A DNA stretch of 64,000 nucleotides from assembly GCA_965115855.1 (NCBI GenBank), contig OZ220470.1, forward strand, positions 975,385 to 1,039,384, in the 5' to 3' direction. Below, piece by piece: positions 7,072-61,268 of the stretch (positions are counted from its first letter, which is position 1; each line of letters begins with the position of its first letter). Position numbers and translations under genes: made by a program. Source of the stretch: Vicinamibacteria bacterium (GTDB lineage: Bacteria; Acidobacteriota; Vicinamibacteria; Marinacidobacterales; Marinacidobacteraceae). Below the pieces are notes generated by a model that did no database searches, was not told the origin of the DNA, and worked only from the letters and a program-made list of their open reading frames with translations.

Positions 7072-7742
7072 CCGCGGCGGCGCTCCACAGCTTCGGCGCT
7101 CCGCAACTTCGACACTCCACAACGTCGGCACTCCACAACGTCGGCGCTCCATAGCGGCGGCACTCCGCAGCGGCGGTGCTCCACAGCTTCGGCGCTCCGC
7201 AACGGCGGTGCTCCACAGCTTCGGCGCTCCGCAGCGGCGGCGCTCCACAGCGGCGGCACTCCACAGCGGCGGCACTCCACAGCGGCGGCACTCCGCAGCG
7301 GCGGCGCTCCGCAGCGGCGGCGCTCCGCAGCTTCGGCGCTCCGCAGCGGCGGCACTCCACAGCGGCGGCACTCCGCAGCGGCGGCACTCCACAGCGGCGG
7401 CACTCCACAGCGGCGGCACTCCACAGCGGCGGCACTCCACAGCGGCGGCACTCCGCAGCGGCGGCGCTCCGCAGCGGCGGCGCTCCGCAGCTTCGGCGCT
7501 CCGCAGCGGCGGCACTCCACAGCGGCGGCACTCCGCAGCGGCGGCACTCCACAGCGGCGGCACTCCACAGCGGCGGCACTCCACAGCGGCGGCACTCCAC
7601 AGCGGCGGCACTCCGCAGCGGCGGCACTCCGCAGCGGCGGCGCTCCGCAGCTTCGGCGCTCCGCAGCTTCGGCGCTCCGCTGCGGCGGCGCTCCGCTGCG
7701 GCGGCGCTCCGCAGCTTCGGCGCTCCGCTGCGTCGGCGCCAC
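7072..7742. repeat. Tandem array of about 42 copies of a 16-bp unit (consensus CAGCGGCGGCACTCCR). The minority variants are CAGCTTCGGCGCTCCG and CAACGTCGGCACTCCA.
   Basis: Direct reading of the sequence. The array sits in the convergent intergenic region between the S9 peptidase gene and lipA. It is why all six frames stay open across 6.6-8.8 kb. Confidence 0.9.
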
Positions 7743-7811: not shown

Positions 7812-8720
7812 TCAGCCCCCGTCCGCTTGCGCGGGGATCTGGTTCGCGGCGTGGTACGAGCTGCGGACCAGCGGTCCGGCCTCGACATGCCGCAGTCCCA
7901 TCGCCCGACCCCGCCGCGCCAGCGCGTCGAACTCGGGAGGCGGGACGAACCGCGCCACCGGCAGGTGCTTCCGCGTCGGCTGGAGATACTGCCCGGCGGT
8001 CAGGATGTCCACCCGGATGTCCACCAGGTCGCGCATCACCTCGTCGAGCTCGCTCTCGGTCTCTCCGAGGCCCAGCATGACACCGGTCTTGGTGATGACA
8101 CCGGAAGACCGACCCTTGGCCCGCGCCAGCAATTCGAGCGAACGCCGGTAGCGGGCGCCGGGTCGGACCCGACGGTAGAGCCGGGGGACGGTCTCGACGT
8201 TGTGGTTCAGGATCTCCGGAGCCTCGTCCATGACCCGGTCGAGGGCCTCGTCGACGCCCTGGAAGTCCGGGATCAGCACCTCGATGGTGGTTCCCGGACA
8301 CCGGGCCCGCACCGCCCGGATGGTGGCCGCGAAGATTCCCGCGCCTCCGTCGGGGAGGTCGTCGCGGTTCACCGAGGTGATCACGGCGTGGCGGAGACCC
8401 ATGACTTCCACCGCCCGGGCGACACGCTCCGGCTCCCCGTGATCGAGCCCCTCCGGCAGACCGGTGGTGACCGCGCAAAAGCCGCACGCCCGGGTGCAAA
8501 CGTCGCCGAGGATCATGAAGGTGGCAGTCCCCTCCCCCCAACACTCGGCCATGTTGGGACAGCGGGCCTCCTCGCAGACGGTATGGAGTTCCTGCTCCCG
8601 GAGCAGCTGCCGGAGCCGCGACCAGGTACCCCCGGAGGGGAGCCGCACCCGCAGCCAGGGAGGACGACGCTCGCTCCCGGACGGATCGGCCGGGACGACC
8701 GGGAGCGGAAGCTCGCTCAA
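7812..8720 (-). CDS. lipA: Lipoyl synthase.
   Basis: Radical-SAM CxxxCxxC motif (CTRACGFC) plus the N-terminal cysteine motif (CEEARCPNMAEC). Typical length of 302 aa. Confidence 0.9.
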   Translation of the reverse strand: MSELPLPVVPADPSGSERRPPWLRVRLPSGGTWSRLRQLLREQELHTVCEEARCPNMAECWGEGTATFMILGDVCTRACGFCAVTTGLPEGLDHGEPERVARAVEVMGLRHAVITSVNRDDLPDGGAGIFAATIRAVRARCPGTTIEVLIPDFQGVDEALDRVMDEAPEILNHNVETVPRLYRRVRPGARYRRSLELLARAKGRSSGVITKTGVMLGLGETESELDEVMRDLVDIRVDILTAGQYLQPTRKHLPVARFVPPPEFDALARRGRAMGLRHVEAGPLVRSSYHAANQIPAQADGG

Positions 8721-29513: not shown

Positions 29514-32500
29514 CTATCCGCCGCTCCCGTCGTTTTCGGCGACCGTGACCGTGACGCTGTCAATCGTCACCGAGTCATACCCGCCGCCGCTCGCCCCGTG
29601 CGTCAACACCACGGCTGGATCCGCTGTCGCGTCCTCGTCCTCGTCCGCCGAAACCGTCACCATCTGCGGCGCCCCGTAGTTCGTGCTCGTGAAGGTCAGA
29701 CTCGCCGGAACAACGCGGACGTCGCCGGAGGCCCCAGCCACTGTCACCGTCACATCACCGCCCGCAGGCCGCGAATCCAGATGCACCGTATAACTCCCGC
29801 TGCCGCCTTCGGCCACTGTCAGCGCGGAATCCGAAACCGTCACCCCGGCCGTGTCGTCATCCATGATCGTGCCAGTGGCTTCGAGCCTCTTCTTCCCGCC
29901 CTCGAAGACCACGCGCCTGTCGCTCGTACGGATGTTGTTCAGGCGCAGGGTGAACGTCTCGTCGTCCTCATCCACCTCATCGCCCAGAACCCGCACGGTC
30001 ACCATCTTGGTCAGATCTCGACCGGTAGCATTGGCCGCGAACACCAGATTCTGGTCCCGGAACCCGACAAAGTCCCGCCCAGCGCCTCGCCCCCCCTTGG
30101 CCGTGCCCGGCCGAGCCCACGCCGTCGCCCGAATCTCCACATCGTGGCTCGGGGAACCACTCAACGTAACGGTGAATTCCATGTCGGTCTCGCCCGAATC
30201 CCCCTCGTCAACGGTCACATCCGAAACCGAAATCTCATGGCCGGTCGACTTGGCGGCATCGTCATCCATGATCGTCCCGATGACTTCGAGCCTCTTCCTT
30301 CCGTTCTCGAAGGCCACTAGCGGGTCGCCCGTTCGGATGTTGTTCAAACGCAGGACAAGCGTCTCGTCGTTTTCTTCCACCTCGTCACCCAACACCTTGA
30401 CCGTCACTATTTTGGTCAGGTCCGCCCCGGTCGCATTCGCTGGAAACACCAGATTCCGATCTCGGAACCCGATGAAATCCCGACCGGCCCCTTTGCCACC
30501 CTTGGCGATATCAATGGCGTCCCTGCTCCATGCCGTCGCCCGAATCTCCACATCGTGGCTCGGCGAGTCACTCAGCGTGACCGTGAAGTCCATGTTCGTT
30601 TCGCCCGAATCCCCTTCGTCAACTGTCACATCAGACGCCGATATCAGCGGCCGAATCGGCTCCGGCTCCGGCCCCGGAACCGGCGCGCGAATCAGCACTT
30701 CCAGTGTGTCGGACACCTCACTGTAGCCGTTAGGATTCACGGCGCGGATTTGGATTCCAAGCGTTTCGCCCTGACTTAGTGTGAAATTTCGATAATCGAT
30801 ATAGCACGGGAGTTCGGTGTCAAGGTGCAAAAGATCGGACCAAGGACTCCACTGACCCTGCCAGCTACGATGTCTGATTCGACTTTGCCACTTAGTAATG
30901 CTGGAGTCCTTCGGATCATCCCAATTGACTGTAACACAATCGGGCAAATGTGCATATCCTTGAAACGCTATAAGACCCGTCGGTTTCGCTGGTACAGCAT
31001 TGCCATACTCGATTACCGACACCACAACAGAGTCAATCGTTATCGAGTCATAGCCACCTCCGCTGGCGCTATGCGTCAGCGTCACATCGGGATCCGTAGT
31101 GGTGTCCATGTCGTATTTCGCGAAAACCGTCACAACTTGTTCGGTGGTCCAATTCCCCCGCGTAAAGGTGAGTGATGATTTATCTACTGTCACATCCCCT
31201 GATTCACCACCCACGGTGATCGTCACGGTCCCTGACGGCGCTTGATTCAATTTTATCGTGTAGCTTTCGCTCCCACCCTCGCGCACCGTCAATTCGGACT
31301 CCGAGACCGTCACTCCCGCGGGAGTCGCTCGCGGCGTCGCCATCACTACAACAGAAGGTTCGCTAAATCCATTGGCGTTCACTGCGCGTACTTGATATTT
31401 ATAAGAAGTTCCAGGAGGACCTCCTCTCTCGTTCCAATATGTCTTGAATTGACCTGATGTTTCCACATATATCTCGGACCACTCATCGCATAATTCAAAT
31501 ATCTCATTGAAACACGCTAAGTCATCCCTTTTCTCCCAACGAATAATACTGGAATCCATGGGGTCATCCCAAGTCAGAACGATTCGTCTGCCGTGTACTG
31601 AGGCCTGAACGCCGGTCGGCTTGGCCGGCACAGCGCTCACTATATCGGAGACCGGGCCGCGCCCATTGGCATTTACTGCCCGCACTTGGAATTCGTAATA
31701 TTCTACATTTTGGAGGTCATGACTGTTGATGATCAATATATCTATCTTGCCGCTACTTCGTTGCCAAGACTCCCAATCCGACCCTTGAATTCTGAGCCGA
31801 TACTCCATAGCAACAATGTTCGAATTGTCCATAGAATCATACTTCAATCTGATATGCCATCCCATTATGGTTGCCGTTAGACGTGTTGGCTTTGCCGGCA
31901 CTCCTCCAGATGACTCCATGGGGACCGCAGTCACAACATCGGAAGCCAAACCGGCACCGTGAATATTCACCGCACGTACTTGAAATACGTAGACAATTCC
32001 GTTCGTCAGATCAATAACCGTGTGATTGCCATGGGAACCGGATTCGCGGATGTCCTTCCATCTCTTGTTTGCCAAACCCTCTTCCTGTGGCGCACTCCGC
32101 ACTTGCCATCCAACGATATTGGCATCGAATAAACCCTCGCCGATGATCGGGCCACTCCAGAACAAACCAACGCGCGAATCACCGGCTTCCGCCGTAAAAT
32201 GCAACGGCTTGCCAGGAGTCGGCGTCCGTGTAGGCACTGCCGAGACTACGTCCGACGCCGGACCAACACCGTAAATGTTCCTGGCACGCACTTGAAATAC
32301 ATAGCTTGTTCCGTTCGTCAGGCCGGTAACGTTGTAGTTGCTGGGAGCGTAATCGGTACGATCAAAATTCAAATCTTGCCAGCTTTTGCTTGTCACGCCT
32401 TCCGCTTGAGACGCCATCCGAATCTGCCACGTTGCATCTCTTTCTCTTAAAATGGGGTTCCAGGTCAACACTACCGAACCATCACGTGGCGCGGCGGTAA

Positions 32501-33755
32501 ATCCTGTCGGCTTGGACGGTGGCTTTCCTTCTGACAGAAATGGCGTGGCGGCAACAACATCCGAGGCCACGCCCGCACCGTTGGCGTTCACAGCGCGTAC
32601 CTGAAAAACAAGCAGCATACCGACTTCCCTACTGAAATCGTAGGGGGCTGTGCCGTAAGATGTTATATCGGACCTGACATTCCACCATTCCTGAGAACTC
32701 AAATTTTCGTTCTCCTGAAATGCCCACCTCATCTGCCATCCGGTTATGCTGGGATCCTTTGGGTCGTCCCAAGTCACCACTATAGTTCCACCCCGGCTGG
32801 CGGTAACAGCGACGCCCTTCGGCTTGCCAGGAGTTGGCGCAAGCATCGGGGTCACGATCACTTCGTCCGAAGCGGCACTTGAAGTATTACCTTTCATCGC
32901 CCGAATTTTGAATCCGTATGCCGTACCGTTCGCCAAGTTGGTTATCGTGTGACTGGACGTGGATGCACTCGATCCCGCAATGTCGGTCCAATCGCCGTAA
33001 TTGCTGTTTCCGGACTTCATTTGATACTGCCAACCAGTGATGCTGGCATTTACCGATTCGTCCCAGTTCAGGGTTGTCTGTCGATCTCCTGCGACGGCGA
33101 CGAGACCCATAGGAGCGCCGGGAGCGCCGTCGTCGTCGACGATAGTCAAGGTGATGGTTCCGGCGGTCCACATCGTGGCTTGGACCGAGTTGTTCGGAAT
33201 GGCCTTGAATGTGAGAGTCTCGTCACGTTCGTCTTCCGCGTCACCGAGGACACTGAATTGGAACGTGGCAGTCCTTTCGCCGCTGCTGATCGTGGCAACA
33301 GCGCCATTGGGCCAACACATGTCGGCACCCGAGGGAGCCGGACTGCTGCAGCCACTGGCGGTCATGGTCTCGTTGAATGTTCCCGTGCTCTCAGCAGCAA
33401 CTGGTTCCATCTTGACATCAAAACTGCCGTCTGCCGCGTCGCCAAGCATTACGGTGATGGCGATATCGGTCCTTTCCGAGTCCCCCTCCGTGAACGACGT
33501 TATCCCAGATGAAAGCGTGATGATCTTGCCCGCGATACCCTGAGCCGCGATGGCGACCGGCCCGTCGGGAGATGCTCCCGGTGCAGAAGGAGTGGCCGGA
33601 GCGGGAGTGACACGAGGCGATGACGGCGTAGTGGGATTGGAAGACCCGCAACCGCTCACTCCGAGCAGGACGGCGATGCCAAGCGCAATTCCTACATAGC
33701 CAAGATGCCGATCAAATCGAACGCAAGCGCTAACGGGAGTAGTATGGATTTTCAT
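29514..33755 (-). CDS. Giant surface lipoprotein (about 1413 aa, paralog B). It has a Calx-beta-like N-terminal domain, at least 8 fibronectin type III domains, two Calx-beta domains and a conserved C-terminal beta-domain. Its central third has only about 50% GC.
   Basis: Start at MKIHTTPVSA with lipobox LLGVSGCGSS. Repeated FN3 signatures (W..R.......W......YxFQVRAVN). Calx-beta motifs (VTVDEGDSGETxMxFTVTLS..DETLVLRLNNIRT). N- and C-terminal blocks are near-identical in architecture to the 15258..17171 protein. Confidence 0.8.
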   Translation of the reverse strand: MKIHTTPVSACVRFDRHLGYVGIALGIAVLLGVSGCGSSNPTTPSSPRVTPAPATPSAPGASPDGPVAIAAQGIAGKIITLSSGITSFTEGDSERTDIAITVMLGDAADGSFDVKMEPVAAESTGTFNETMTASGCSSPAPSGADMCWPNGAVATISSGERTATFQFSVLGDAEDERDETLTFKAIPNNSVQATMWTAGTITLTIVDDDGAPGAPMGLVAVAGDRQTTLNWDESVNASITGWQYQMKSGNSNYGDWTDIAGSSASTSSHTITNLANGTAYGFKIRAMKGNTSSAASDEVIVTPMLAPTPGKPKGVAVTASRGGTIVVTWDDPKDPSITGWQMRWAFQENENLSSQEWWNVRSDITSYGTAPYDFSREVGMLLVFQVRAVNANGAGVASDVVAATPFLSEGKPPSKPTGFTAAPRDGSVVLTWNPILRERDATWQIRMASQAEGVTSKSWQDLNFDRTDYAPSNYNVTGLTNGTSYVFQVRARNIYGVGPASDVVSAVPTRTPTPGKPLHFTAEAGDSRVGLFWSGPIIGEGLFDANIVGWQVRSAPQEEGLANKRWKDIRESGSHGNHTVIDLTNGIVYVFQVRAVNIHGAGLASDVVTAVPMESSGGVPAKPTRLTATIMGWHIRLKYDSMDNSNIVAMEYRLRIQGSDWESWQRSSGKIDILIINSHDLQNVEYYEFQVRAVNANGRGPVSDIVSAVPAKPTGVQASVHGRRIVLTWDDPMDSSIIRWEKRDDLACFNEIFELCDEWSEIYVETSGQFKTYWNERGGPPGTSYKYQVRAVNANGFSEPSVVVMATPRATPAGVTVSESELTVREGGSESYTIKLNQAPSGTVTITVGGESGDVTVDKSSLTFTRGNWTTEQVVTVFAKYDMDTTTDPDVTLTHSASGGGYDSITIDSVVVSVIEYGNAVPAKPTGLIAFQGYAHLPDCVTVNWDDPKDSSITKWQSRIRHRSWQGQWSPWSDLLHLDTELPCYIDYRNFTLSQGETLGIQIRAVNPNGYSEVSDTLEVLIRAPVPGPEPEPIRPLISASDVTVDEGDSGETNMDFTVTLSDSPSHDVEIRATAWSRDAIDIAKGGKGAGRDFIGFRDRNLVFPANATGADLTKIVTVKVLGDEVEENDETLVLRLNNIRTGDPLVAFENGRKRLEVIGTIMDDDAAKSTGHEISVSDVTVDEGDSGETDMEFTVTLSGSPSHDVEIRATAWARPGTAKGGRGAGRDFVGFRDQNLVFAANATGRDLTKMVTVRVLGDEVDEDDETFTLRLNNIRTSDRRVVFEGGKKRLEATGTIMDDDTAGVTVSDSALTVAEGGSGSYTVHLDSRPAGGDVTVTVAGASGDVRVVPASLTFTSTNYGAPQMVTVSADEDEDATADPAVVLTHGASGGGYDSVTIDSVTVTVAENDGSGG

Positions 33756-34295
33756 AGATAGAGATGGCCTTTCGGGCGGAACTTCGGGAGGAGAGTGCAG
33801 TATCGGCGAGTGGATTCCGGCGATAAAACCAAGGAATTCCAACGCATTGAGTGTAGTCACCCAGAATGTCAGTTCTGACATTAATCGCATCATTTTTCGG
33901 CGCACGCGCTGCGAACAAAAGGTGACAACCGCTCGATTGGTGGATCGGCGCAGTGGTCGCGCCTGGTCCACGCAGGCGCCAGTGATCGCGGTGTTCACCG
34001 ATTCCGACTTTTCGGTTATCCCAAGTACGACGAACCGTGATCTCCGGAAACTCGGCGCCCGGACGGTCGAGGGGGGCACTACCGGATCGGTTCGACCGAA
34101 CGAGCTCGATTCATGGCTTGCGGACGCGGGCGAAAGCCCCGGTTCCCCCGGGCCGAACACTCTGCTCTTCGGGCGGCGCGGTAGCGGCGATGCGACCTCA
34201 ACTACCGCGGTCCGTCGTTGGGGGTCGCGGAGAGCGCCACCCCAGGGACGGCGGCGCGCTAGCTAACGGTTACCGCTTCCGCTTGGTGTGATAAT

Positions 34296-34772
34296 ATGTC
34301 GCATACTATGCAGAACCGGGGCGGCGGCCATGCGGAGCGGCGGGGGGCGCTGCGGCGGTTGCTGGCGGAGCGGCGGCTGGCGACGCAGGCCGAGGTGATC
34401 GCGGCGCTGGCCGAGGACGGGTTTCCGGTGACGCAGCCGGCGGTGAGCCGGGATCTCCGGGAACTCGGCGCCCGCAAGGTGGAAGGGCGGTACCGGATCG
34501 GACCGACCGAATGGTCGCGGTTTATGGGTCTCGGCGCCCTCGTGGAGGCGCTGGTTCCCGCGGGGCCGAACATCCTCGTCATTCGGACGGCTCCCGGCGG
34601 GGCGCAGCGGGCGGGCCATGCCCTCGACAACGCCGGATGGCAGGAAATCGCCGGCACGGTCGCGGGCGACGACACCGTGTTCGTCGCCAGCCGGAGCGCC
34701 GCCGACCAGAACCGGCTGCTGGAGCGGCTGCGGAAAGCCCTCTCCAGCGAAAGCGAGAAGGTCCCGGCATGA
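34296..34772 (+). CDS. argR: Arginine repressor.
   Basis: N-terminal winged helix (LATQAEVIAALAEDGFPVTQPAVSRDLRELG) and C-terminal oligomerisation domain with GTVAGDDTVFV. Its stop overlaps the argC start (ATGA). Confidence 0.85.
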   Translation: MSHTMQNRGGGHAERRGALRRLLAERRLATQAEVIAALAEDGFPVTQPAVSRDLRELGARKVEGRYRIGPTEWSRFMGLGALVEALVPAGPNILVIRTAPGGAQRAGHALDNAGWQEIAGTVAGDDTVFVASRSAADQNRLLERLRKALSSESEKVPA

Positions 34773-35845
34773 CCGGACGCGAATCCCCTGCCCCTTCCGT
34801 CCTGGCGGTCGTCCTTGGCGCGTCCGGCTATGTGGCGGGAGAGATGCTCCGCTGGATCGCTTTGCACCCCGGCATCGGACTCGGCGCGGCGGTGTCCTCG
34901 AGTCATGCAGGGGGAGCGCTGGCGGACTCCTTCCCCAACCTCGGCGCCGCCTTTCCCGTCGAGCGGTTTCTCGCGCCCGGGGAACTGGCCGGATGGCTTC
35001 GGAACGCATCGGGAGAGGCGGAACGGGTGGTCGCCTTCTCGGCGGCGCCGCATACCCGGTCGGCGCCGCAAATCCGCGACCTACTGGAGATGACCGAGCG
35101 GCTCGGACTCCGGGTTCCGGTGGTGGATCTCTCGGCGGACTTCCGCCACCGGGATCCCGAGGTCTACAAGGCCATCTACGGCGTCCCCCATCCGGCTCCG
35201 GAACTTCTGTCCGGGTTCGTCTGCGGTCTTCCGGAGCGGATTTCCGGGACGCCGTCGGAACGCATCGCCCATCCGGGGTGCTTTGCGACCGCGGTGGCGC
35301 TTGCCGCGTGGCCGCTCCGCCGGGCGGGGGTCATCGGGCCCGAAATCCAGGTCGCCGCGATCACCGGCAGCACCGGATCGGGCGGCGCTCCGAAACCCAC
35401 CACCCACCACCCCGAACGCCACGCCAACCTCTTCGCCTACAAGCCGCTGGCCCATCGGCACGCGCCGGAGATGGAGAACCTGATCGGCGACGCCCGGGAA
35501 CCGGTCCGGGTTCGTTTCGTGCCCCACTCCGGGCCGTTCGCCCGGGGCATCCACGCCACCCTGTTCGCGGAACGACGGGACGGGGCCGACGTGGAGGCGA
35601 CCCTCGCCGCGTGCTACCGCGACCAGCCGCTGATCCGGGTGACCGGCGCTCCGAAGCTGAAGGAAGTCGTGGGTTCGGCCTCCACCGTCGTCGGGGGATG
35701 CGCGGAGGGGAACACCGCAGTGGCCTTCGCCGCACTCGACAACTTGGGAAAGGGCGCCGCCAGCGGCGGGATGCAGTGGATGAACCGCATCCTCGGCCTT
35801 CCCGACGAAACCGGCCTGACCGCACCGGCGGCCTCGTGGCTCTGA
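34769..35845 (+). CDS. argC: N-acetyl-gamma-glutamyl-phosphate reductase.
   Basis: NAD-binding GASGYVAGE. Catalytic Cys motif PGCFATA. Typical ArgC length (358 aa). Confidence 0.9.
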   Translation: MTGRESPAPSVLAVVLGASGYVAGEMLRWIALHPGIGLGAAVSSSHAGGALADSFPNLGAAFPVERFLAPGELAGWLRNASGEAERVVAFSAAPHTRSAPQIRDLLEMTERLGLRVPVVDLSADFRHRDPEVYKAIYGVPHPAPELLSGFVCGLPERISGTPSERIAHPGCFATAVALAAWPLRRAGVIGPEIQVAAITGSTGSGGAPKPTTHHPERHANLFAYKPLAHRHAPEMENLIGDAREPVRVRFVPHSGPFARGIHATLFAERRDGADVEATLAACYRDQPLIRVTGAPKLKEVVGSASTVVGGCAEGNTAVAFAALDNLGKGAASGGMQWMNRILGLPDETGLTAPAASWL

Positions 35846-36586
35846 TCCGCCCGGAGCGGCGCCGGAACACCCTGCGGAAACAGCCGGCCGGCGCCTTGGG
35901 CACGGAAACGGTGCCCACGCTCTTCGAGCCTGCGAAGCCCCGGCGGAAACGGTGGGCCCGCGCCCGGTCCGGCTGGTTGGCCACCGGGAAGGTGTTGTGG
36001 CTCGCGGAGTCGGTGTAATGCATGTTCACGGCGCGGAGATCGAACCGGTTCCGATCGGTGATCGGAAAACGGGCGCCCGCGAACCCGCAGACCGCCCTCA
36101 TGCCGATCCGGAGCATGTTCGGTGCAACCTGGCTCTCGATCCCGCCGAAAGCGGCGGGTTTCCCGGTGGCGACCGCCCGACGGAAAGGGGCGGACACCAC
36201 CGGAAACAGAGATTGCCCGGGAATGGCAGTGCTCCTGGATCCCGCGCTTTCCCCGGTCCCATCGTCTTCGGCGTCGCCTCCGTCGAACCGGGCGCAGGGC
36301 CTACTGGCGGTGACCAGGCGGAACGGACCGTGGTTCTTGAAGTTCGGCCCGGAGCGGCGGCGCCAAACGCCGGAAGCACCGTCAGCACCGCGGCGGGACG
36401 TGGCGCAGCAAGAAACAGGCGGCGGACCGGCTCGGGAGCGGATCGAATCATGAGCGCCATGCCTGGTGGCGTCGCCCTCCGTGAGGGGATCCCGGCGCGC
36501 CGGGCGTTATCCGCCAATCGACAGGCATCCACCGCGGCAAGCGAACCCGCGCCGAAACTCCCGCATCCCGGTCCCGGAGGCACGCC

Positions 36587-37732
36587 TTGACCGCCGAATC
36601 CCCCCATCTGTTTCCGGTCTACGCCCAGCTCCCGGTCCGCATCGCCCGGGGAGACGGCGTGACCCTCACCACCGACACCGGCCGGACCCTGCTGGACTTC
36701 TACGGCGGACACGCGGTTGCCGGTCTCGGATACGGACACCCGGCGGTGCTGGCCGCGCTCCGGGAGTCGGCGGAACAACTCCTCTTCCAGACCAATGCAG
36801 TCCCGAGCGCCCGCCGGGCGGCGGCGGCGGCGGCGCTGGCCGGATTCGCTCCGGACGGACTCGACCGGGTCTTCTTCGTGAACAGCGGCGCCGAAGCCAA
36901 CGAGAACGCCCTCCGACTGGCGTTCCGAAAGCGCCCCGAACGCGACACGGTGGTGGTCGCAAGCGGCGGGTTCCACGGACGCACGGCGGCAGCCGCTGCC
37001 GCCACCGCCGGTTCGGAGCGATGGTACGGGTTCCCGCGGACGCCCTTCGAGACGCGAACGGTGGCGCGCGACGATCCGGGCGCGCTCGCCGAAGCGGTGG
37101 ACGAGCGGGTCGCCGCGGTGCTGCTGGAGCCGGTGCAGGGGATGGCGGGCGCCATCGTGCTCGGCCACGATTTCCTCCGGACGGCGCGCGAGGCATGCGA
37201 CCGGACCGGAGCGCTGCTGATCTTCGACGAGGTGCAGTGCGGCATGGGCCGGAGCGGCAAGCCCTTCGCGTGCGACTGGCCGGGAGTGCGGCCCGACCTG
37301 CTGACGACCGCCAAGGCGGTCGCCGCCGGGTTTCCTGCGGGAGCGGTGCTTGCCACCGAAGCGGTGGCCGGCAACCTTCCGGTGGGGGCGCTCGGCACCA
37401 CGTTCGGAGGAGGCCCGGTCGCCGCGGCGCTGGTGGTCGCGGTGATCGAGACCATCCTGCGCGAACGGCTGCTCCCCGAAGTGGTGCGGCTTTCCGAGCG
37501 GATCCGCGCCGAAGCTCCCGGCGGGGTGGTGGAAGCGGTCCAGGGTCGAGGATTCCTGTTGGGCCTCCGGTGCTCCCGCCCGGCGCGCGAGGTGCGGGAT
37601 TGGCTGCTCGAGCGGGGCATTCTCGCCGGAACCTCGACCGACCCCGCAGTCCTGCGGCTGCTTCCCCCGCTGGTGCTGCGCGACGAACATGTGGACCGAC
37701 TGCTGACCGAACTTCGGGAGATCGAGCGGTGA
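36587..37732 (+). CDS. argD: Acetylornithine aminotransferase (class III PLP).
   Basis: Class-III aminotransferase motifs (FDEVQCGMGRSGKPFA, TTAKAVAAGFP). Non-ATG start as given in the ORF track. Confidence 0.9.
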   Translation: MTAESPHLFPVYAQLPVRIARGDGVTLTTDTGRTLLDFYGGHAVAGLGYGHPAVLAALRESAEQLLFQTNAVPSARRAAAAAALAGFAPDGLDRVFFVNSGAEANENALRLAFRKRPERDTVVVASGGFHGRTAAAAAATAGSERWYGFPRTPFETRTVARDDPGALAEAVDERVAAVLLEPVQGMAGAIVLGHDFLRTAREACDRTGALLIFDEVQCGMGRSGKPFACDWPGVRPDLLTTAKAVAAGFPAGAVLATEAVAGNLPVGALGTTFGGGPVAAALVVAVIETILRERLLPEVVRLSERIRAEAPGGVVEAVQGRGFLLGLRCSRPAREVRDWLLERGILAGTSTDPAVLRLLPPLVLRDEHVDRLLTELREIER

Positions 37733-38771
37733 GTGGTCCGGAAATCCAGCGGACGGGGGATCGGGGCGCCGATGCGTCCCGGCACGGCGCGGGCCCTGCC
37801 CTCCGGCTGCCGATCACGCACCGCAACCGGAACTGCTGGCCGGGCTCTGGGGGATCGCAGCGCATCGTCCCCGAATCCATCGGCCGGGAGGCCCGGGTAC
37901 CGACGGATCCCGTCGCAGCGCGGCCCTTGCCCCCTGGCCGCCGATCACGCGACACGGCCGGCGCTGCCGCGCGGGCTTCAAGAGATCGCGCGGTGAGGCG
38001 TCCCGAAATCCATCAGCTGCAAGACCGGGGCACCGACGGATCCCGGTACGGTGTGGCCCTTCCCCTCCGGCTACCGATCACGCAGCGCGAACGGAACGGC
38101 CGCCCGGCTTCGGGGGATCGGACAGGGCAGGCTCCCGAATTCACCGGCCAGAGGACGGGAGCACCAACAATTCCCGATACAGCGCGGCCTTCCCGCCGGC
38201 ACCCGATCACGCAGTGCGAACGAACGGCCGCCCGGGCTTTGGAGGATCGGACGGGACAGACTCCCCGAATCCGCCAGCGGGCAACCGGCGCCGACGAACC
38301 CGGGTACGGCGCGGCCCTTCCTCTCCGCTACCGATCACACAGCGCGAACGGAACGGCCACCCGGACTTCGGAGGATCGGACGGGACAGACTCCCCGAGTC
38401 CGCCAGCGGGCAACCGGCGCCGACGAACCCGGGTACGGCGCGGCCCTTCCTCTGCGCTACCAATCACACAACGCGAACGGAACGGCCACCCGGACTTCGG
38501 AGGATCGGACGGGACAGACTCCCCGAGTCCGCCAGCGGGCAACCGGCGCCGACGAATCCGGGTACGGCGCGGCCCTTCCTCTCCGCTACCGATCACACAG
38601 CGCGAACGGAACGGCCGCCCGGGCTTCGGGGGATCGGACGGGGCAGACTCCCAAATCCACCGGCCGGAGGACGGGAGCGCCCACAGACCCCGGTACAGCG
38701 CGGCCCTCCCCAACGGCTGCCGATCGCACGGCAAGACCAGCGCTGCCGCGCGGGCTTCGGGAGGTCGGGCG
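37733..38771. repeat. Tandem array of about 8.5 degenerate copies of a 120-125 bp unit. It fills the entire argD-argF' intergenic space. Both terminal copies run into the gene ends.
   Basis: The recurring core is CGATCACACAGCGCGAACGGAACGGCCRCCCGGRCTTCGGRGGATCGGACGGGACAGACTCCCCGAGTCCGCCAGCGGGCAACCGGCGCCGACGAAYCCGGGTACGGCGCGGCCCTTCCTCTCCGCTAC. The first and second copies contain GAGATCGMGCGGTGAGKSGTCCSGAAATCCA. This resembles both the argD stop junction and the argF' GTG start region. Confidence 0.85.
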
Positions 38772-39800
38772 GTGAGGCTTTCCGAAATCCACCAGTTGGA
38801 GGACCTCGGCGCCGACGGGCTCGGCCGGATCGCCTCCCTCGCCCGCCGATTGCGGGAACGACCCGAACCGGATGCCCTGCGCGGGCGGGTGCTGGGCCTG
38901 CTGCTGCTGAACCCGTCGCTCCGGACCCAGGCGTCGTTCCAGGCGGCCATGGCCCGGCTCGGCGGCGCGAGCTTCGTCATCGCCCCCGACCGGTTCATCC
39001 ACCACCTCGAGTTGGACCCCGACGCGATCATGGATGGTGAAGCCGCCGAGAACATCGCCGAGGCGATTCCGGTGCTCGCCAGCTATGTCGACGTCCTCGG
39101 CGTCCGGGCGTTCGGCCGACAACGAAGCCTCGCGGAGGATATGGACGATCCGGTCATCGAGCGCATCCGTGCGCTGACCGGCAAGCCGTTCCTGAACCTG
39201 GAGTCGGCGATGCGGCATCCCTGCCAAGCGATCTCGGACTGGCTCTCGCTGGATGACTTCGGGGTGCGGCCGGGCGCGAAGTTCACGCTGGCGTGGGCGA
39301 ACCATCCGGCCCCCCTGCCCCTCGCGGTGCCGGCGGACACCCTGCGGATGGCCACGATGCGCGGGATGCGGGTGACGGTGCTTCGCCCCCGAGGGTACGC
39401 CCTGCCGCCGGCGGTGATGGAGGAGGCGCGGGCCCTTGCAGCCGCGGCCGGCGGATCGCTTCGGGAAACCGAAGACATCAACGAAGGCATGGACAGAGCG
39501 CGGGTTCTCTACGCGAAGTCCTGGGCTTCAACCGTCCACTACGGGGATCAGAAGGCGGATATCGGTATCCGGCGAATGCTTGGTGACTGGACGGTGGACG
39601 ATCCCTGGTTCGAGGGAGCGGATCCCGCCTGCGACTTCCTTCACTGCCTGCCGGTCCGACGGGGCGTGGTCGCCACCCGGAAGGTTCTGGAAGGCCCCCG
39701 GTCCCGGATCGTGCGCCAGGCGGAAAACCGGATGTGGGCCCAGATGGCGATCCTCCACCGCCTGCTGGCCCGAACCTCGAGCGGAGGGCCGACGGGATGA
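38772..39800 (+). CDS. Ornithine-type carbamoyltransferase. It is likely the N-acetyl/N-succinyl-ornithine carbamoyltransferase type (ArgF').
   Basis: It has the carbamoyltransferase fold with SLRTQ where canonical STRTR occurs. There is a C-terminal HCLP motif. The GTG start is read off the last repeat copy. Its stop overlaps the argB start. Confidence 0.75.
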   Translation: MRLSEIHQLEDLGADGLGRIASLARRLRERPEPDALRGRVLGLLLLNPSLRTQASFQAAMARLGGASFVIAPDRFIHHLELDPDAIMDGEAAENIAEAIPVLASYVDVLGVRAFGRQRSLAEDMDDPVIERIRALTGKPFLNLESAMRHPCQAISDWLSLDDFGVRPGAKFTLAWANHPAPLPLAVPADTLRMATMRGMRVTVLRPRGYALPPAVMEEARALAAAAGGSLRETEDINEGMDRARVLYAKSWASTVHYGDQKADIGIRRMLGDWTVDDPWFEGADPACDFLHCLPVRRGVVATRKVLEGPRSRIVRQAENRMWAQMAILHRLLARTSSGGPTG

Positions 39801-40750
39801 TCGAACGGCTCACCGCCGAAGAACGCGCCACCCGGGTGCGCGCGCTCAAGCATGCGGCGCCCTACCTGAAGCGCTACCGGGGGCGGACCCTGCTCATCAA
39901 GGCCGGGGGCGCCACCCTCGAGAGCGACCGGGGCATCGCCGGCATCGTGGAGCAGATCGCCCTGCTCCACCGGCTGGGTATCCACATCGTCTTCGTCCAC
40001 GGCGGTGGTCCCCAGGGCACCGAACTCGCTCGCGCACTCGGGCGGGAAACCCGGTTCGTCGCCGGGCGGCGGGTCACCGACGCCGACGGGATCCGGGTGA
40101 TGGCGATGGCCATGAACGGCGCGATCAACACCCGGATCCTTGCCGCCTGTCGGGCCTGGGACCTTCCCGCGGTCGGGTTTTCCGGGGTCTCCGCCGGGCT
40201 GATCGAAGCGCACCGGCGGCCGCCGGTCGAGGTGGACGGAACGACGGTGGACTACGGGCTGGTCGGCGACATCCACCGGGTGCGGGCGGAAGTGCTCGCC
40301 GAACAACTCCGCCTGGGAGTCATTCCGGTGATCAGCCCGCTGTCCGCCGACGATGCCGGCCAGCTGCTGAACATCAACGCCGACACGGTGGCGGCCGCCC
40401 TGGCCGCGGCGATCAAGGCCGAAAAACTGATCCTGCTCGGCGAGACCCCGGGGCTGCTCGGCGATCCGGATGACCCCGGAAGCGTCATCTCCTTCCTGGA
40501 TATCGAGGAGCTGGGCCGGATGACCGGATCCGGGGCGATCCGCAGCGGGATGCTCCCGAAGGCCCGCTGCATCCGGGAGGCGCTCGGCGGCGGAGTCGCC
40601 CGGGCGCATCTGATTCCGCTGGGCGTTCCCGACAGCCTGCTCCTCGAGATCTTCACCCCGGAGGGGATCGGCACGCTGGTGGTGCCGAAACTGGATGACC
40701 TGTCGTCCGCCGAGCGGGCGCGGCGCATGAGCGGCGCCGGGGGAAACTGA
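39797..40750 (+). CDS. argB: Acetylglutamate kinase.
   Basis: AAK-family motifs (LIKAGGA, VFVHGGGPQ, NINADTVAAALA). Typical length (317 aa). Confidence 0.9.
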   Translation: MIERLTAEERATRVRALKHAAPYLKRYRGRTLLIKAGGATLESDRGIAGIVEQIALLHRLGIHIVFVHGGGPQGTELARALGRETRFVAGRRVTDADGIRVMAMAMNGAINTRILAACRAWDLPAVGFSGVSAGLIEAHRRPPVEVDGTTVDYGLVGDIHRVRAEVLAEQLRLGVIPVISPLSADDAGQLLNINADTVAAALAAAIKAEKLILLGETPGLLGDPDDPGSVISFLDIEELGRMTGSGAIRSGMLPKARCIREALGGGVARAHLIPLGVPDSLLLEIFTPEGIGTLVVPKLDDLSSAERARRMSGAGGN

Positions 40751-41440
40751 TCAGCGCCCCGGAGCGGACGCAACCCGACGCCGGCACCGGGGGAAACACC
40801 CGAATCGCACGCCGGAAGGACCCGGAAATGGCGCCGGGGGAACCGATCAGCGCCCCGGAGCGGACGCAACCCGACGCCGGCACCGGGGGAAACACCCGAA
40901 TCGCACGCCGGAGGGACCCCGCAACGGCGCCGGGAAAACCGATCAGCGCCCCGGAGCGGACGCAACCCGGCGCCGGCACCGGGGGAAACACCCGAATCGC
41001 ACGCCGGAGGGACCCCGCAACGGCGCCGGGAAAACCGATCAGCGCCCCGGAGCGGACGCAACCCGACGCCGGCACCGGGGGAAACACCCGAATCGCACGC
41101 CGGAGGGACCCCGCAACGGCGCCGGGAAAACCGATCAGCGCCCCGGAGCGGACGCAACCCGGCGCCGGCACCGGGCGAACCACCCGAATCGCACGCCGGA
41201 GGGACCCCGCAACGGCGCCGGGAAAACCGATCAGCGCCCCGGAGCGGACGCAACCCGACGCCGGCACCGGGGGAAACACCCGAATCGCACGCCGGAGGGA
41301 CCCCGCAACGGCGCCGGGAAAACCGATCAGCGCCCCGGAGCGGACGCAACCCGACGCCAGCAACGGGGGAACCACCCGAATCGCCCGCCGGAGGGACCCC
41401 GCAACGGCGCCGGGGGGACCGATCAGCGCCCGCCGAACCG
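40730..41440. repeat. Tandem array of 7 copies of a 96-bp unit, with partial copies at both ends. Each unit carries the palindromic stop-stop junction motif GGCGCCGGGRRAACYGATCAGCGCC.
   Basis: The GATCAGCGCC motif recurs at exact 96-bp spacing, 8 times. The first copy encodes the argB C-terminus and stop (..GGN TGA). The last copy encodes the C-terminus and stop of the convergent minus-strand phosphatase-like gene. Confidence 0.85.
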
Positions 41441-60211: not shown

Positions 60212-61202
60212 CGCGCGGCCATCCGCGACCGGCTGGTAGGACCAGCTGTCCAGCCAGACCAGCACCGTCCGGAGCGGATGGCGTGGCGACCTGGCCCTCG
60301 CGGGCGCTACCGGCACGCGAACGCCCGCCACGATCCGACCAGGGGAAAAGGAGTCATGGGCGCGGGACGGTACAACGGCCGGGCTTCCGAAGCGAGCGGC
60401 GCGAACCGGAACTGCCGTCCGGCCGCCGCCGGGATCCCCTGCCAGCGTTCGCGCCGGGACGCGGACGTCCCTACGGCGGCAACCCCCCGGGGTGGCGTCA
60501 CCTCGTCGGAGACCGGGCCGCGGCCACTGCGAAATTCCCCGCCCGGATGTTGAAGGTGCAGAGCACGCCGTTGGTCGGTCGGCGCGCCGTGGTGGTCGGC
60601 GCGATCCTGCGGTTGCGACTCGGGGCGCCGTCGCTCGCCGCCGGATCGTCCGTCAGGCAGGACGCTGGACGGCGGGGACAGGATTCCCGCGCCGGGTGGC
60701 CGGCTCCCCGAGATGGGGAAGAGTCCGGTCCGCTGGCCTGGTGGACCGAACCAGGCCAGCCACGGATCCGGCGGAGGACCGGGAACGTCTTCGGTCAGGG
60801 CCCGGACCAGGACCGAAAGCGGAACGCCGCCCCGGCCTGATTCCGGACGGGCGTTTTCGAAGGGTTGTCGATCACCTCCCATGCTTCGTCACTCCAGGTC
60901 TCGTCGGGACTCCCGGTCCCGGCCTCGGTGCTCGTTGCCTCCCCGACACACTCTCGGGATCAGGCGACAAGCGCGGCGTCGGGACACTCCGGCGGATTCT
61001 TCGATCTTCCGGGGCGGCTCATGGAGTGTCCGCCGCCTTTCGAACCCGCGCCCCGGCCGCTGCGATACGAGACCGGAGACCAGAACGCGAAGGGGCGCCG
61101 TCATCGCCAAATCCGGAAGCCTCCGTTCGTTCCGTTGATCGGACCGTTCCCCGGGTCGTGGGTGGTGGAGGCTCCTGAACCCTCGATGCGCCACCGGCCG
61201 CT

Positions 61203-61268
61203 GACGACAACATCGCCCGTATTGACGACAACATCGTCCGTATTGACGACAACATCGTCCGTATACAG
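61203..61268. repeat. Three tandem direct repeats of about 21 bp (GACGACAACATCGYCCGTATT) in a 1.3-kb gene-free region.
   Basis: Direct reading. It lies downstream of the threonine dehydratase gene and about 0.9 kb upstream of the desaturase gene. Confidence 0.5.

What the first reader, a model, noticed from the sequence alone, without database searches (positions are those of the whole stretch)
37733..38771. Approximately 123-bp x about 8.5 tandem array occupying the whole argD-argF' intergenic region. It is built from copies of the gene-junction sequence.
The spacer between argD and the next arg gene is not unique sequence but a degenerate tandem array. The first copy begins right at the argD stop (..ATCGAGCGGTGAGTGGTCCGGAAATCCAGC..). 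The last copy ends with GGTCGGGCGGTGAGGCTTTCCGAAATCCACCAG, which supplies the GTG start and first codons of the carbamoyltransferase. The second copy contains the same stop/start-like GAGATCGCGCGGTGAGGCGTCCCGAAATCCATCAG. Thus the array appears to have grown by repeated duplication of the argD-stop/argF'-start junction. Such a 1-kb array inside a biosynthetic operon should affect transcriptional coupling. It creates six-frame open reading, which explains the spurious 769-aa ORF.
Basis: seen in the sequence. Interest (0 to 1): 0.55.

Follow-up and report, generated by a model that had tools for sequence, protein, structure and literature searches.

The report
Tandem repeat grown from a gene junction
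The 1-kb gap between two arginine-synthesis genes is a real, old tandem repeat that grew by re-copying the spot where the two genes once overlapped by four bases; it is an instructive oddity of genome evolution, not a new biological system.

Summary
Positions 37733-38771, the whole argD-argF' spacer, are a degenerate head-to-tail array. It has 8 units of 128-133 bp (not 123), plus a ninth partial copy that is the true argF' ribosome-binding site, GTG start and first ~50 nt.

The genome is an acidobacterial (Vicinamibacteria, 'Ca. Marinacidobacterium'-like) 3.0-Mb chromosome. Its three nearest relatives with the same argR-argC-argD-argF'-argB operon have no array. In them the argD stop and argF' start overlap by 4 nt (GTGA or ATGA).

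A profile built only from interior units finds those array-less junctions (E 1.6e-6 and 0.004). So about 70-80 nt of each unit (X) is a copy of the junction. The other 50-60 nt (Y, with a near-invariant CCGATCAC) cannot be traced to either flank or to anything else searched.

There is no sign of coding selection, RNA structure, promoter, terminator or dispersed copies.

Best reading: a locally born minisatellite, tolerated because the outer copies keep both genes intact.

A 348-codon ORF runs from the pseudo-start at the argD stop to a TGA overlapping the real GTG. This resembles mycobacterial MIRUs, but it is statistically weak. Interest is moderate. It is a new variant of a known kind.

The parts
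36587..37732 (+). argD (acetylornithine aminotransferase). It is intact, and its TGA (37730-37732) overlaps a GTG (37729-37731) exactly as at the ancestral junction.
   Evidence: NCBIfam/Pfam hits; 90% identical to the L001 ortholog over all 381 aa.
37708..37838 (+). Unit 1. Its first 25 nt are the true argD 3' end (SD-like GGGAG 37716-37720, GTGA 37729-37732). A decayed copy of the argF' N-terminus follows (VSGPEIQRTGDRGADA against the real VRLSEIHQLEDLGADG), then segment Y.
37839..37971 (+). Unit 2, with a degenerate junction motif (GGGGGATCGCAGCGCATCG).
37972..38100 (+). Unit 3. It keeps an intact GTGA (37993-37996), and its X segment is the one most like the real junction (VRRPEIHQLQDRGTDG).
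38101..38228 (+). Unit 4. Its X segment is 89% identical to that of unit 8, but its Y segment only 66% (mosaic history).
38229..38617 (+). Units 5, 6 and 7 (starts 38229, 38358, 38487). They are about 95% identical, and the GTGA-equivalent points in this block are 129 nt (43 codons) apart. This is the most recent amplification.
38618..38750 (+). Unit 8. Its 3' part runs into the real junction copy.
38751..38822 (+). Ninth, partial copy (X only), which is the functional argF' translation start. It holds SD GGGAGG 38759-38764, a 7-nt spacer, GTG 38772-38774 and the first 51 nt of argF'.
   Evidence: Profile hit 38753-38822, E 3e-7; sequence read directly.
38772..39800 (+). argF' (N-acetylornithine carbamoyltransferase). 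It is intact.
   Evidence: NF003384 292.6 bits against cut-off 288, with the profile aligned from residue 5; identical 342-aa public gene call P0001.
37729..38775 (+). 'Bridge' ORF of 348 codons. Its GTG overlaps the argD stop, and its TGA (38773-38775) overlaps the real argF' GTG, so there is a -4 overlap at both ends. It has no coding-type composition.
   Evidence: stops per frame; GC1/2/3 0.73/0.70/0.73 against 0.75/0.52/0.85 in genes.

Best explanation
The spacer is a locally born, non-coding minisatellite.

**Ancestral state (shown by comparison).** argD and argF' overlapped by 4 nt (GTGA), with the argF' Shine-Dalgarno sequence lying inside the last codons of argD.

**Origin and growth (inferred).** A segment spanning this overlap was duplicated in tandem. 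It then amplified, shuffled and diverged by unequal recombination or slippage. The result is X(YX)x8. X is about 70-80 nt: the last ~22-34 nt of argD, GTGA and the first ~48-51 nt of argF'. Y is about 50-60 nt of untraceable origin.

**Why it is tolerated (inferred).** A duplication that spans a gene boundary leaves a complete upstream gene at the left end and a complete downstream gene at the right end, with its own RBS and start. So it is one of the few ways to insert DNA between overlapping genes without damaging either.

**Age (inferred from divergence).** Old units are 60-77% identical to each other. Neutral (four-fold) sites between this genome and L001 are 61-71% identical. The first duplications are therefore about as old as that split. 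Units 5-7 (95% identical) are recent.

**Expression (inferred, untested).** The operon is probably still transcribed through the array. argF' is probably translated from the SD and GTG carried by the last copy. Ribosomes finishing argD can restart at the retained pseudo-start and read a 348-codon junk ORF. That ORF ends in a TGA overlapping the true GTG, which may incidentally preserve coupling and shield the RNA from Rho.
For: - The array and its units are established.
- Flanking gene identities and the argF' start are established.
- The operon is conserved, and the argD/argF' overlap is 4 nt in L001, L040 and L081. Other relatives have spacers of roughly 10-70 nt, and none has an array.
- A profile built only from interior units hits the array-less junctions of L001 (E 1.6e-6) and L040 (E 0.0036) and nothing else in 921 kb. 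X consensus against the real junctions gives z = 10.3-10.6.
- Units have mosaic X/Y relationships, typical of unequal exchange inside arrays.
- Neutral divergence from L001 at four-fold sites is 0.61-0.71 identity, against 0.60-0.77 between units.
- Non-coding and unstructured: GC by codon position is flat; the 769-aa ORF has no Pfam hit; fold z-scores are -1.3 to +1.4; the covariation term is +0.19; there are no Rfam hits.
- No terminator-like or sigma-70-like promoter sites lie in 34-42 kb.
- A second array, 2 kb downstream, is likewise anchored on gene ends.
Against: - Y, about 45% of each unit, cannot be derived from either flank (z < 2.3), from X, or from anything in the window or 83 related loci. 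A simple contiguous-segment duplication predicts Y should match argF' +50..+100 or the argD tail about as well as X matches the junction. It does not, so the first event was more complex (filler DNA, an insertion, or lost intermediates).
- The + strand is depleted of stop codons (1 against 8.6 expected), and the bridge ORF closes exactly on the real start. This hints at some selection on translation, which the neutral reading does not predict.
- No reads, no conspecific genome and no expression data were available.
- Only 64 kb of a 3.0-Mb genome could be searched for dispersed copies.
Confidence: 0.8

Rival explanations
1. **Selected MIRU-like coupling relay.** The array is kept because its long ORF (GTG overlapping the argD stop, TGA overlapping the argF' start) hands ribosomes from argD to argF' and keeps the 1-kb RNA translated, preventing Rho-dependent polarity. 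Only frame-preserving expansions survive.
For: - The bridge ORF has -4 overlaps at both ends.
- + strand stops are 1 observed against 8.6 expected, and 5% of shuffles leave that frame open.
- The recently amplified units are 129 nt, which is 43 codons.
- The array has persisted about as long as the split from L001.
- There is precedent: an ORF within a MIRU becomes coupled to the downstream gene with -4 spacing (PMC12548453, citing Supply et al. 1997).
Against: - Two of the three + frames are open anyway, so an open relay frame is not surprising given the T-poor composition (10.5% T).
- The units share ancestry, so the stop depletion is not an independent observation for each unit.
- The required frame relation has a 1-in-3 prior.
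- There is no period-3 signal.
- The real start has its own strong SD (GGGAGG, 7-nt spacer), so it does not need a relay.
Confidence: 0.25
2. **Regulatory uncoupler.** The array separates argF'-argB from argR-argC-argD. It would do this by carrying an internal promoter, as the MIRU-containing senX3-regX3 spacer does, or by partial termination.
For: - The senX3-regX3 intergenic region, which contains several MIRUs, drives senX3-independent expression of regX3 (PMC4213456).
- A 1-kb spacer inside an otherwise 4-nt-overlapped operon must change the RNA context.
Against: - No sigma-70-like promoter and no intrinsic terminator is predicted anywhere in 34-42 kb. The scan covers only consensus types.
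- No conserved structure was found.
- Conservation along the unit is roughly even, X 66% and Y 70%.
Confidence: 0.12
3. **Dispersed mobile or REP/MITE-type element.** An element inserted at the junction and then amplified.
For: - Y has no traceable local origin.
- In L002 and L009 a palindromic MITE-like element sits at this same junction.
- The same CCCCCACCGGGAGAACTGG core occurs elsewhere in L005.
Against: - No copy of the unit or of Y exists outside the array in the window or in 857 kb of related loci.
- The Y core is absent from JGI metagenome contigs and viral contigs.
- The units contain no inverted repeats.
- X is host gene sequence.
Confidence: 0.06
4. **Assembly artefact.** The repeat was collapsed, expanded or made chimeric by the assembler.
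For: Units 5-7 are about 95% identical, so their number could be misjudged. The reads could not be examined.
Against: - Most units differ by 25-40% and are uniquely placeable.
- The source is a single 3,016,700-bp contig, implying reads far longer than 1 kb.
- Both flanking genes are intact and in frame at the array ends.
Confidence: 0.04
5. **Protein-coding repeat.** The array would be an N-terminal extension of ArgF' from GTG 38214, or a separate repeat protein.
For: There are long open frames (the 528-aa and 769-aa ORFs).
Against: - GC1/2/3 is flat in every phase, including the in-frame 129-nt block.
- There is no Pfam hit.
- Homologs and the public gene call start at 38772.
- Unit lengths of 131 and 133 nt shift the frame.
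Confidence: 0.03

Closest known systems
MIRUs (mycobacterial interspersed repetitive units), e.g. the senX3-regX3 spacer of M. tuberculosis (Supply et al. 1997, as summarised in PMC12548453; PMC4213456)
   Same: Both are tandem units lying between two co-oriented operon genes. In both, an ORF inside the repeat is joined to the downstream start with -4 spacing, so the insertion need not abolish coupling. Copy number grows in situ.
   Different: MIRUs are 53-77 bp at the senX3-regX3 locus (PMC4213456). They form a family dispersed over many loci and are thought to be mobile (PMC12548453). Here the unit is ~130 bp and was found at a single locus. More than half of it is demonstrably a copy of the local gene junction. 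Only two of the eight array units keep a GTGA, so any relay would be one long ORF, not one per unit.
Ordinary bacterial intergenic minisatellites / VNTR loci
   Same: Head-to-tail copies, a gradient from old diverged units to young near-identical ones, and mosaic units that imply unequal exchange.
   Different: The unit origin can be read directly: the overlapping stop/start of the flanking genes. The array sits inside a biosynthetic operon that is otherwise packed with 4-nt overlaps. Copy-number polymorphism, the practical hallmark of a VNTR, could not be tested.
REP/BIME and MITE-type intergenic elements, such as the palindromic element at the same junction in L002 and L009
   Same: They occupy the same kind of niche, between a stop and the next start in an operon.
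   Different: The units here have no inverted repeats or stable hairpin, no dispersed copies were found, and the copies are contiguous, not solitary insertions.

Membership tests
Tandem-repeat array (minisatellite/VNTR) | Contiguous head-to-tail copies of one unit, beyond chance | tested here: met
   TRF score 691-893. Eight profile hits at E 1e-21 to 1e-33 plus a partial ninth.
Tandem-repeat array (minisatellite/VNTR) | Copy number varies between strains | not testable with these tools
   No conspecific sequence exists in the collections. The next-best ArgF' is 84% identical, exact-protein look-ups found nothing, and the Y core is absent from metagenome contigs.
MIRU-like intergenic repetitive units | Located between co-oriented genes of an operon | tested here: met
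   It lies between argD and argF' of a conserved argR-argC-argD-argF'-argB operon.
MIRU-like intergenic repetitive units | An ORF in the repeat overlaps the flanking stop and start codons (-4) | tested here: met
   GTG 37729 overlaps the argD TGA, and TGA 38773 overlaps the argF' GTG. It is one 348-codon ORF, not one ORF per unit, and chance is not excluded (5% of shuffles).
MIRU-like intergenic repetitive units | The same unit is interspersed at many loci of the genome | tested here: not met
   No other copy exists in the 64-kb window or in 857 kb of related loci. The rest of the 3.0-Mb chromosome could not be searched.
MIRU-like intergenic repetitive units | Sequence similarity to the mycobacterial MIRU consensus | not tested
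The host is an acidobacterium, and X is derived from the local genes.
REP/BIME/MITE elements | Terminal or internal inverted repeats forming a stable hairpin | tested here: not met
   No inverted repeat lies inside the array. Fold z-scores are -1.3 to +1.4, and there is no covariation support.
Protein-coding tandem repeat | Period-3 compositional signal and a consistent frame | tested here: not met
   GC by position is 0.70/0.73/0.73, against 0.75/0.52/0.85 in neighbouring genes. Unit lengths are 129-133 nt. There is no Pfam hit.
Known structured RNA family | A match to an Rfam covariance model | tested here: not met
   There were no matches at gathering thresholds in the whole window.

The most novel reading that the evidence does not exclude
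This lineage may make 'junction minisatellites' as a regular process. Overlapping or abutting gene ends would be re-copied into kilobase arrays. This would create intergenic space, and long junk ORFs, in a genome otherwise packed with 4-nt overlaps. At co-oriented junctions the arrays would be kept in a frame that relays ribosomes from the upstream stop to the downstream start. Two independent arrays around argF'-argB would be the first examples: 37708-38822 at a co-oriented junction and 40732-41431 at a convergent TGATCA junction.
Probability: 0.15. Interest if true: 0.6.

Novelty: new variant of a known kind. Interest (0 to 1): 0.4.

Why it matters
It is a clean natural example of how a spacer can arise between two genes whose stop and start overlap. 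A tandem duplication spanning the boundary leaves both genes whole, and it carries the downstream gene's ribosome-binding site along with it.

It also shows that such an array can persist and keep expanding inside an essential amino-acid operon for about as long as two species have been diverging.

If the long ORF that bridges the two genes proves to be translated, this would be a non-mycobacterial, locally derived counterpart of MIRU-type coupling. It would also be a ready source of de novo ORF material.

Practically, the array explains a spurious 769-aa ORF and warns annotators against extending argF' upstream.

Tried and rejected
**Origin of Y.**
- I scanned all breakpoints for a composite of argF' head plus argD tail. 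The score surface was flat from 45 to 115 nt, so the breakpoint is unresolved.
- Shuffle tests of unit middles and of the Y consensus against the window, L001, L040 and L081 flanks gave z no higher than 2.3.
- Y against X, and against reverse-complemented X, gave z of about 0 or below.
- A Y-only HMM run on both strands of the window and 83 loci found nothing outside the array.
- A peptide-level resemblance (RLPITQRERNGRP against RLRERPEP) is suggestive but not significant, so I do not claim it.

**Conspecific copies for copy-number variation.**
- Exact-protein look-ups of ArgF', ArgD and P0001 found nothing.
- The homolog search shows a single 100% entry on one contig.
- Cluster look-up gave no accession.
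- Exact-match scans for a 28-nt Y-core pattern in the metagenome contigs and a 24-nt version of it in the viral contigs both returned 0.

**Function by structure or signals.**
- Rfam, single-sequence folds, the alignment fold and the promoter/terminator scan were all negative.

**Other checks.**
- The array as a coding region was rejected.
- The argC-argD 741-bp spacer as a decayed array was rejected, because it has no repeat structure.
- The L001 argB-downstream spacer as a homologous array was rejected, because it holds two inserted small genes.
- A literature search for previously described junction-derived arrays found none; only the MIRU analogy turned up. No paper mentions 'Marinacidobacterium'.

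Full report

Yes. TRF reports a period-129 array (38033-38729, 5.4 copies, 81% matches) and a 258-nt higher-order period. It misses the older copies.

Anchoring on the recurring CCGATCAC motif (eight sites, 128-133 nt apart) and aligning gives eight full units. They start at 37708, 37839, 37972, 38101, 38229, 38358, 38487 and 38618. A ninth partial copy starts at 38751.

A profile HMM of the unit recovers all eight (E 1e-21 to 1e-33) and the partial ninth (38753-38822, E 3e-7). A 19-nt core of the unit occurs six times with up to 3 mismatches, against 0.13 expected, and only inside the array.

Units 5-7 are about 95% identical to each other. The others are 57-75% identical.

**2. The flanking genes**

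- argC is 34769-35845.
- argD is 36587-37732.
- argF' is 38772-39800. It is N-acetylornithine carbamoyltransferase (NF003384, above its cut-off, with the profile aligned from residue 5).
- argB is 39734-40750.
- argR lies at about 34383-34745.

A public gene call gives exactly the same 342-aa ArgF' on a single 3,016,700-bp contig (P0001). So 37733-38771 is exactly the argD-argF' spacer.

The copy with an intact GTGA is the third, not the second. Only the + strand is nearly free of stops.

**3. Where the array comes from**

The genome belongs to the Acidobacteriota (Vicinamibacteria, 'Candidatus Marinacidobacterium'-like), judging from the titles of its closest relatives. The argC-argD-argF'-argB order is conserved in all near relatives, and L081 also shows argR upstream.

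The three nearest relatives have no spacer, and the argD stop overlaps the argF' start by 4 nt:

| Locus | ArgF' identity | Junction |
|---|---|---|
| L001 | 84% | ...GAGATCGAGCGGTGAGCCTTTCC... |
| L040 | 76% | ATGA overlap |
| L081 | 72% | GTGA overlap |

More distant relatives have spacers of roughly 10-70 nt. Two of them (L002, L009) carry an unrelated palindromic MITE-like insertion of 200-250 nt. None has the array.

In the window the argD end still reads GAGATCGAGCGGTGA, with a GTG overlapping its TGA. The true argF' start reads GGGAGGTCGGGCGGTGAGG.

A profile built only from interior array sequence hits the array-less junctions of L001 (E 1.6e-6) and L040 (E 0.0036) and nothing else in 921 kb. 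The consensus of that part of the unit scores z of about 10 against both the window's real junction and L001's.

Translated, units 1 and 3 still read VSGPEIQRTGDRGADA and VRRPEIHQLQDRGTDG, against the real VRLSEIHQLEDLGADG. The junction origin of this segment (X) is therefore shown, not just plausible. X comprises the last ~22-34 nt of argD, GTGA and the first ~48-51 nt of argF'.

**4. What is not explained**

The other 50-60 nt of each unit (Y) contains the near-invariant CCGATCAC. If the founding event had been a simple duplication of a contiguous 130-nt block, Y should be the next ~50 nt of argF' and/or more of the argD tail.

- A scan over all possible breakpoints gave a flat score surface.
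- Shuffle tests of Y against those flanks in four genomes gave z no higher than 2.3.
- Y is not a diverged copy of X.
- Y has no match elsewhere in the window, in 83 related loci, in JGI metagenome contigs or in viral contigs.

X and Y are about equally conserved among units, at 66% and 70%. So differential decay does not explain the gap. The array is best written X(YX)x8. The first step was more complex than a clean duplication, or its traces are lost.

**5. History**

X and Y give different unit relationships. X of units 4 and 8 is 89% identical while their Y is 66%. Y of unit 3 is 82-85% identical to units 5-7 while its X is 59%. This mosaic is the signature of unequal exchange or conversion inside an array.

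Four-fold degenerate sites of argD and argF' are 71% and 61% identical between the window and L001. That is similar to the 60-77% identity among old units. So the oldest duplications are roughly as old as the split from L001, and amplification has continued until recently (units 5-7).

**6. Does it do anything?**

- **Coding.** GC content by codon position is flat in every phase (0.70/0.73/0.73), including the in-frame 129-nt block. Neighbouring genes show 0.75/0.52/0.85. The 769-aa ORF has no Pfam match. So the array is not a selected coding region.
- **RNA.** There is no Rfam match, no unusually stable fold (z -1.3 to +1.4) and no covariation support.
- **Signals.** No sigma-70-like promoter and no intrinsic terminator is predicted between 34 and 42 kb.
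- **The argF' start.** The real start has a good SD (GGGAGG 38759-38764, 7-nt spacer), supplied by the duplicated argD tail.
- **The bridge ORF.** The GTG that overlaps the argD stop (37729) opens a 348-codon frame. It crosses the whole array and ends at TGA 38773-38775, overlapping the true GTG. That gives a -4 overlap at both ends.

This last feature is what is described for mycobacterial MIRUs, where an ORF in the repeat becomes coupled to the downstream gene with -4 spacing (PMC12548453, citing Supply et al. 1997). Untranslated RNA is where Rho loads (same review), so translating the spacer could also protect the transcript.

The statistics are weak, however. 5% of dinucleotide shuffles leave that frame open. 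Two of the three + frames are open anyway because the strand is T-poor (10.5% T). The units are also not independent observations. I therefore treat the relay as a possible by-product, with about 0.25 probability that it is selected.

**7. Best explanation and rivals**

Best explanation (0.8): a locally generated minisatellite that started from the 4-nt-overlap junction. It is tolerated because a boundary-spanning duplication keeps an intact argD on the left and an intact argF', with its RBS, on the right.

| Rival | Confidence |
|---|---|
| Selected MIRU-like relay | 0.25 |
| Regulatory uncoupler or internal promoter | 0.12 |
| Dispersed mobile element | 0.06 |
| Assembly artefact | 0.04 |
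| Coding repeat | 0.03 |

The first two rivals overlap with the main account, because they concern function and not origin.

**8. Context noticed on the way**

A second array (40732-41431, 96 bp x 7.3, 95% identity) is anchored on gene ends in the same way. Its first copy contains the argB stop in CTGATCAG (TGA 40748-40750). Its last copy contains the stop (TCA 41423-41425) of the convergent phosphatase-like gene. Its unit is itself a diverged dimer of about 48 nt (z 4.7).

A third array (16 bp x 41.5, 7074-7737) sits in another convergent spacer. Related genomes also carry several long-period intergenic repeats. The lineage is evidently prone to tandem repeats.

**9. Verdict**

It is not a member of the MIRU family, because it is not dispersed as far as could be tested and is locally derived. 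It may work like one. I rate it a new variant of a known kind, with moderate interest (0.4).

Noticed in passing
window 40732-41431: A second tandem array (96 bp x 7.3, 95% identity) fills the convergent argB/phosphatase-like spacer. The first copy holds the argB stop (TGA 40748-40750 in CTGATCAG). The last copy holds the stop of the minus-strand gene (TCA 41423-41425). So it is also anchored on a gene junction, with abutting stops in a palindromic TGATCA. The 96-nt unit is a diverged dimer of about 48 nt (z 4.7).
   Followed up: partly
window 7074-7737: A 16-bp x 41.5 array (GCGGCGGCACTCCGCA, 89% matches) lies in the convergent spacer between a 651-aa ORF I did not scan against any family library (4951-6906, +) and a 302-aa ORF I took from its sequence to be a lipoyl-synthase-like gene (7812-8720, -). 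It is not anchored on either stop codon.
   Followed up: partly
window 35846-36586; L001 4138-4852: A 741-bp non-repetitive spacer lies between argC and argD. L001 shares it (716 bp, 68-73% nt identity, about the neutral rate). It is absent from L081 and most other relatives, which have about 1-90 nt there. No consistent coding frame was seen. Its origin is unknown.
   Followed up: partly
L002 5744-6000; L009 5798-6000; L005 1339-1579: A palindromic MITE-like element sits exactly between the argD stop and the argF' start in two more distant relatives. It has inverted ends of about 15-23 nt (a 23-nt, 87%-complementary pair detected in L009; read by eye in L002) and a perfect 19-nt inverted repeat CCAGTTCTCCCGGTGGGGG / CCCCCACCGGGAGAACTGG. 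The same core occurs in a 100-bp x 2.4 repeat elsewhere in L005. So this junction has been hit independently by a different kind of insertion.
   Followed up: partly
window 29514-34160 (minus strand), GC 50-58%: A low-GC island (about 30-34 kb, against about 70% elsewhere) carries a 1548-aa ORF immediately upstream of argR. It may be horizontally acquired.
   Followed up: no
L001 8082-9273 (minus strand): In the closest relative the argB-phosphatase spacer holds two small inserted ORFs instead of an array. Each has 21-bp coding repeats (WAEQS-type motifs), and the first has a hydrophobic N-terminus.
   Followed up: no
L004 2889-3091: A 104-bp x 2.0 tandem duplication inside argC splits the protein match into two frames. 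It is either a pseudogene or a short-read assembly error.
   Followed up: no
window 61202-61264: A 21-bp x 3.0 near-perfect tandem repeat (TGACGACAACATCGTCCGTAT). Its context was not examined.
   Followed up: no
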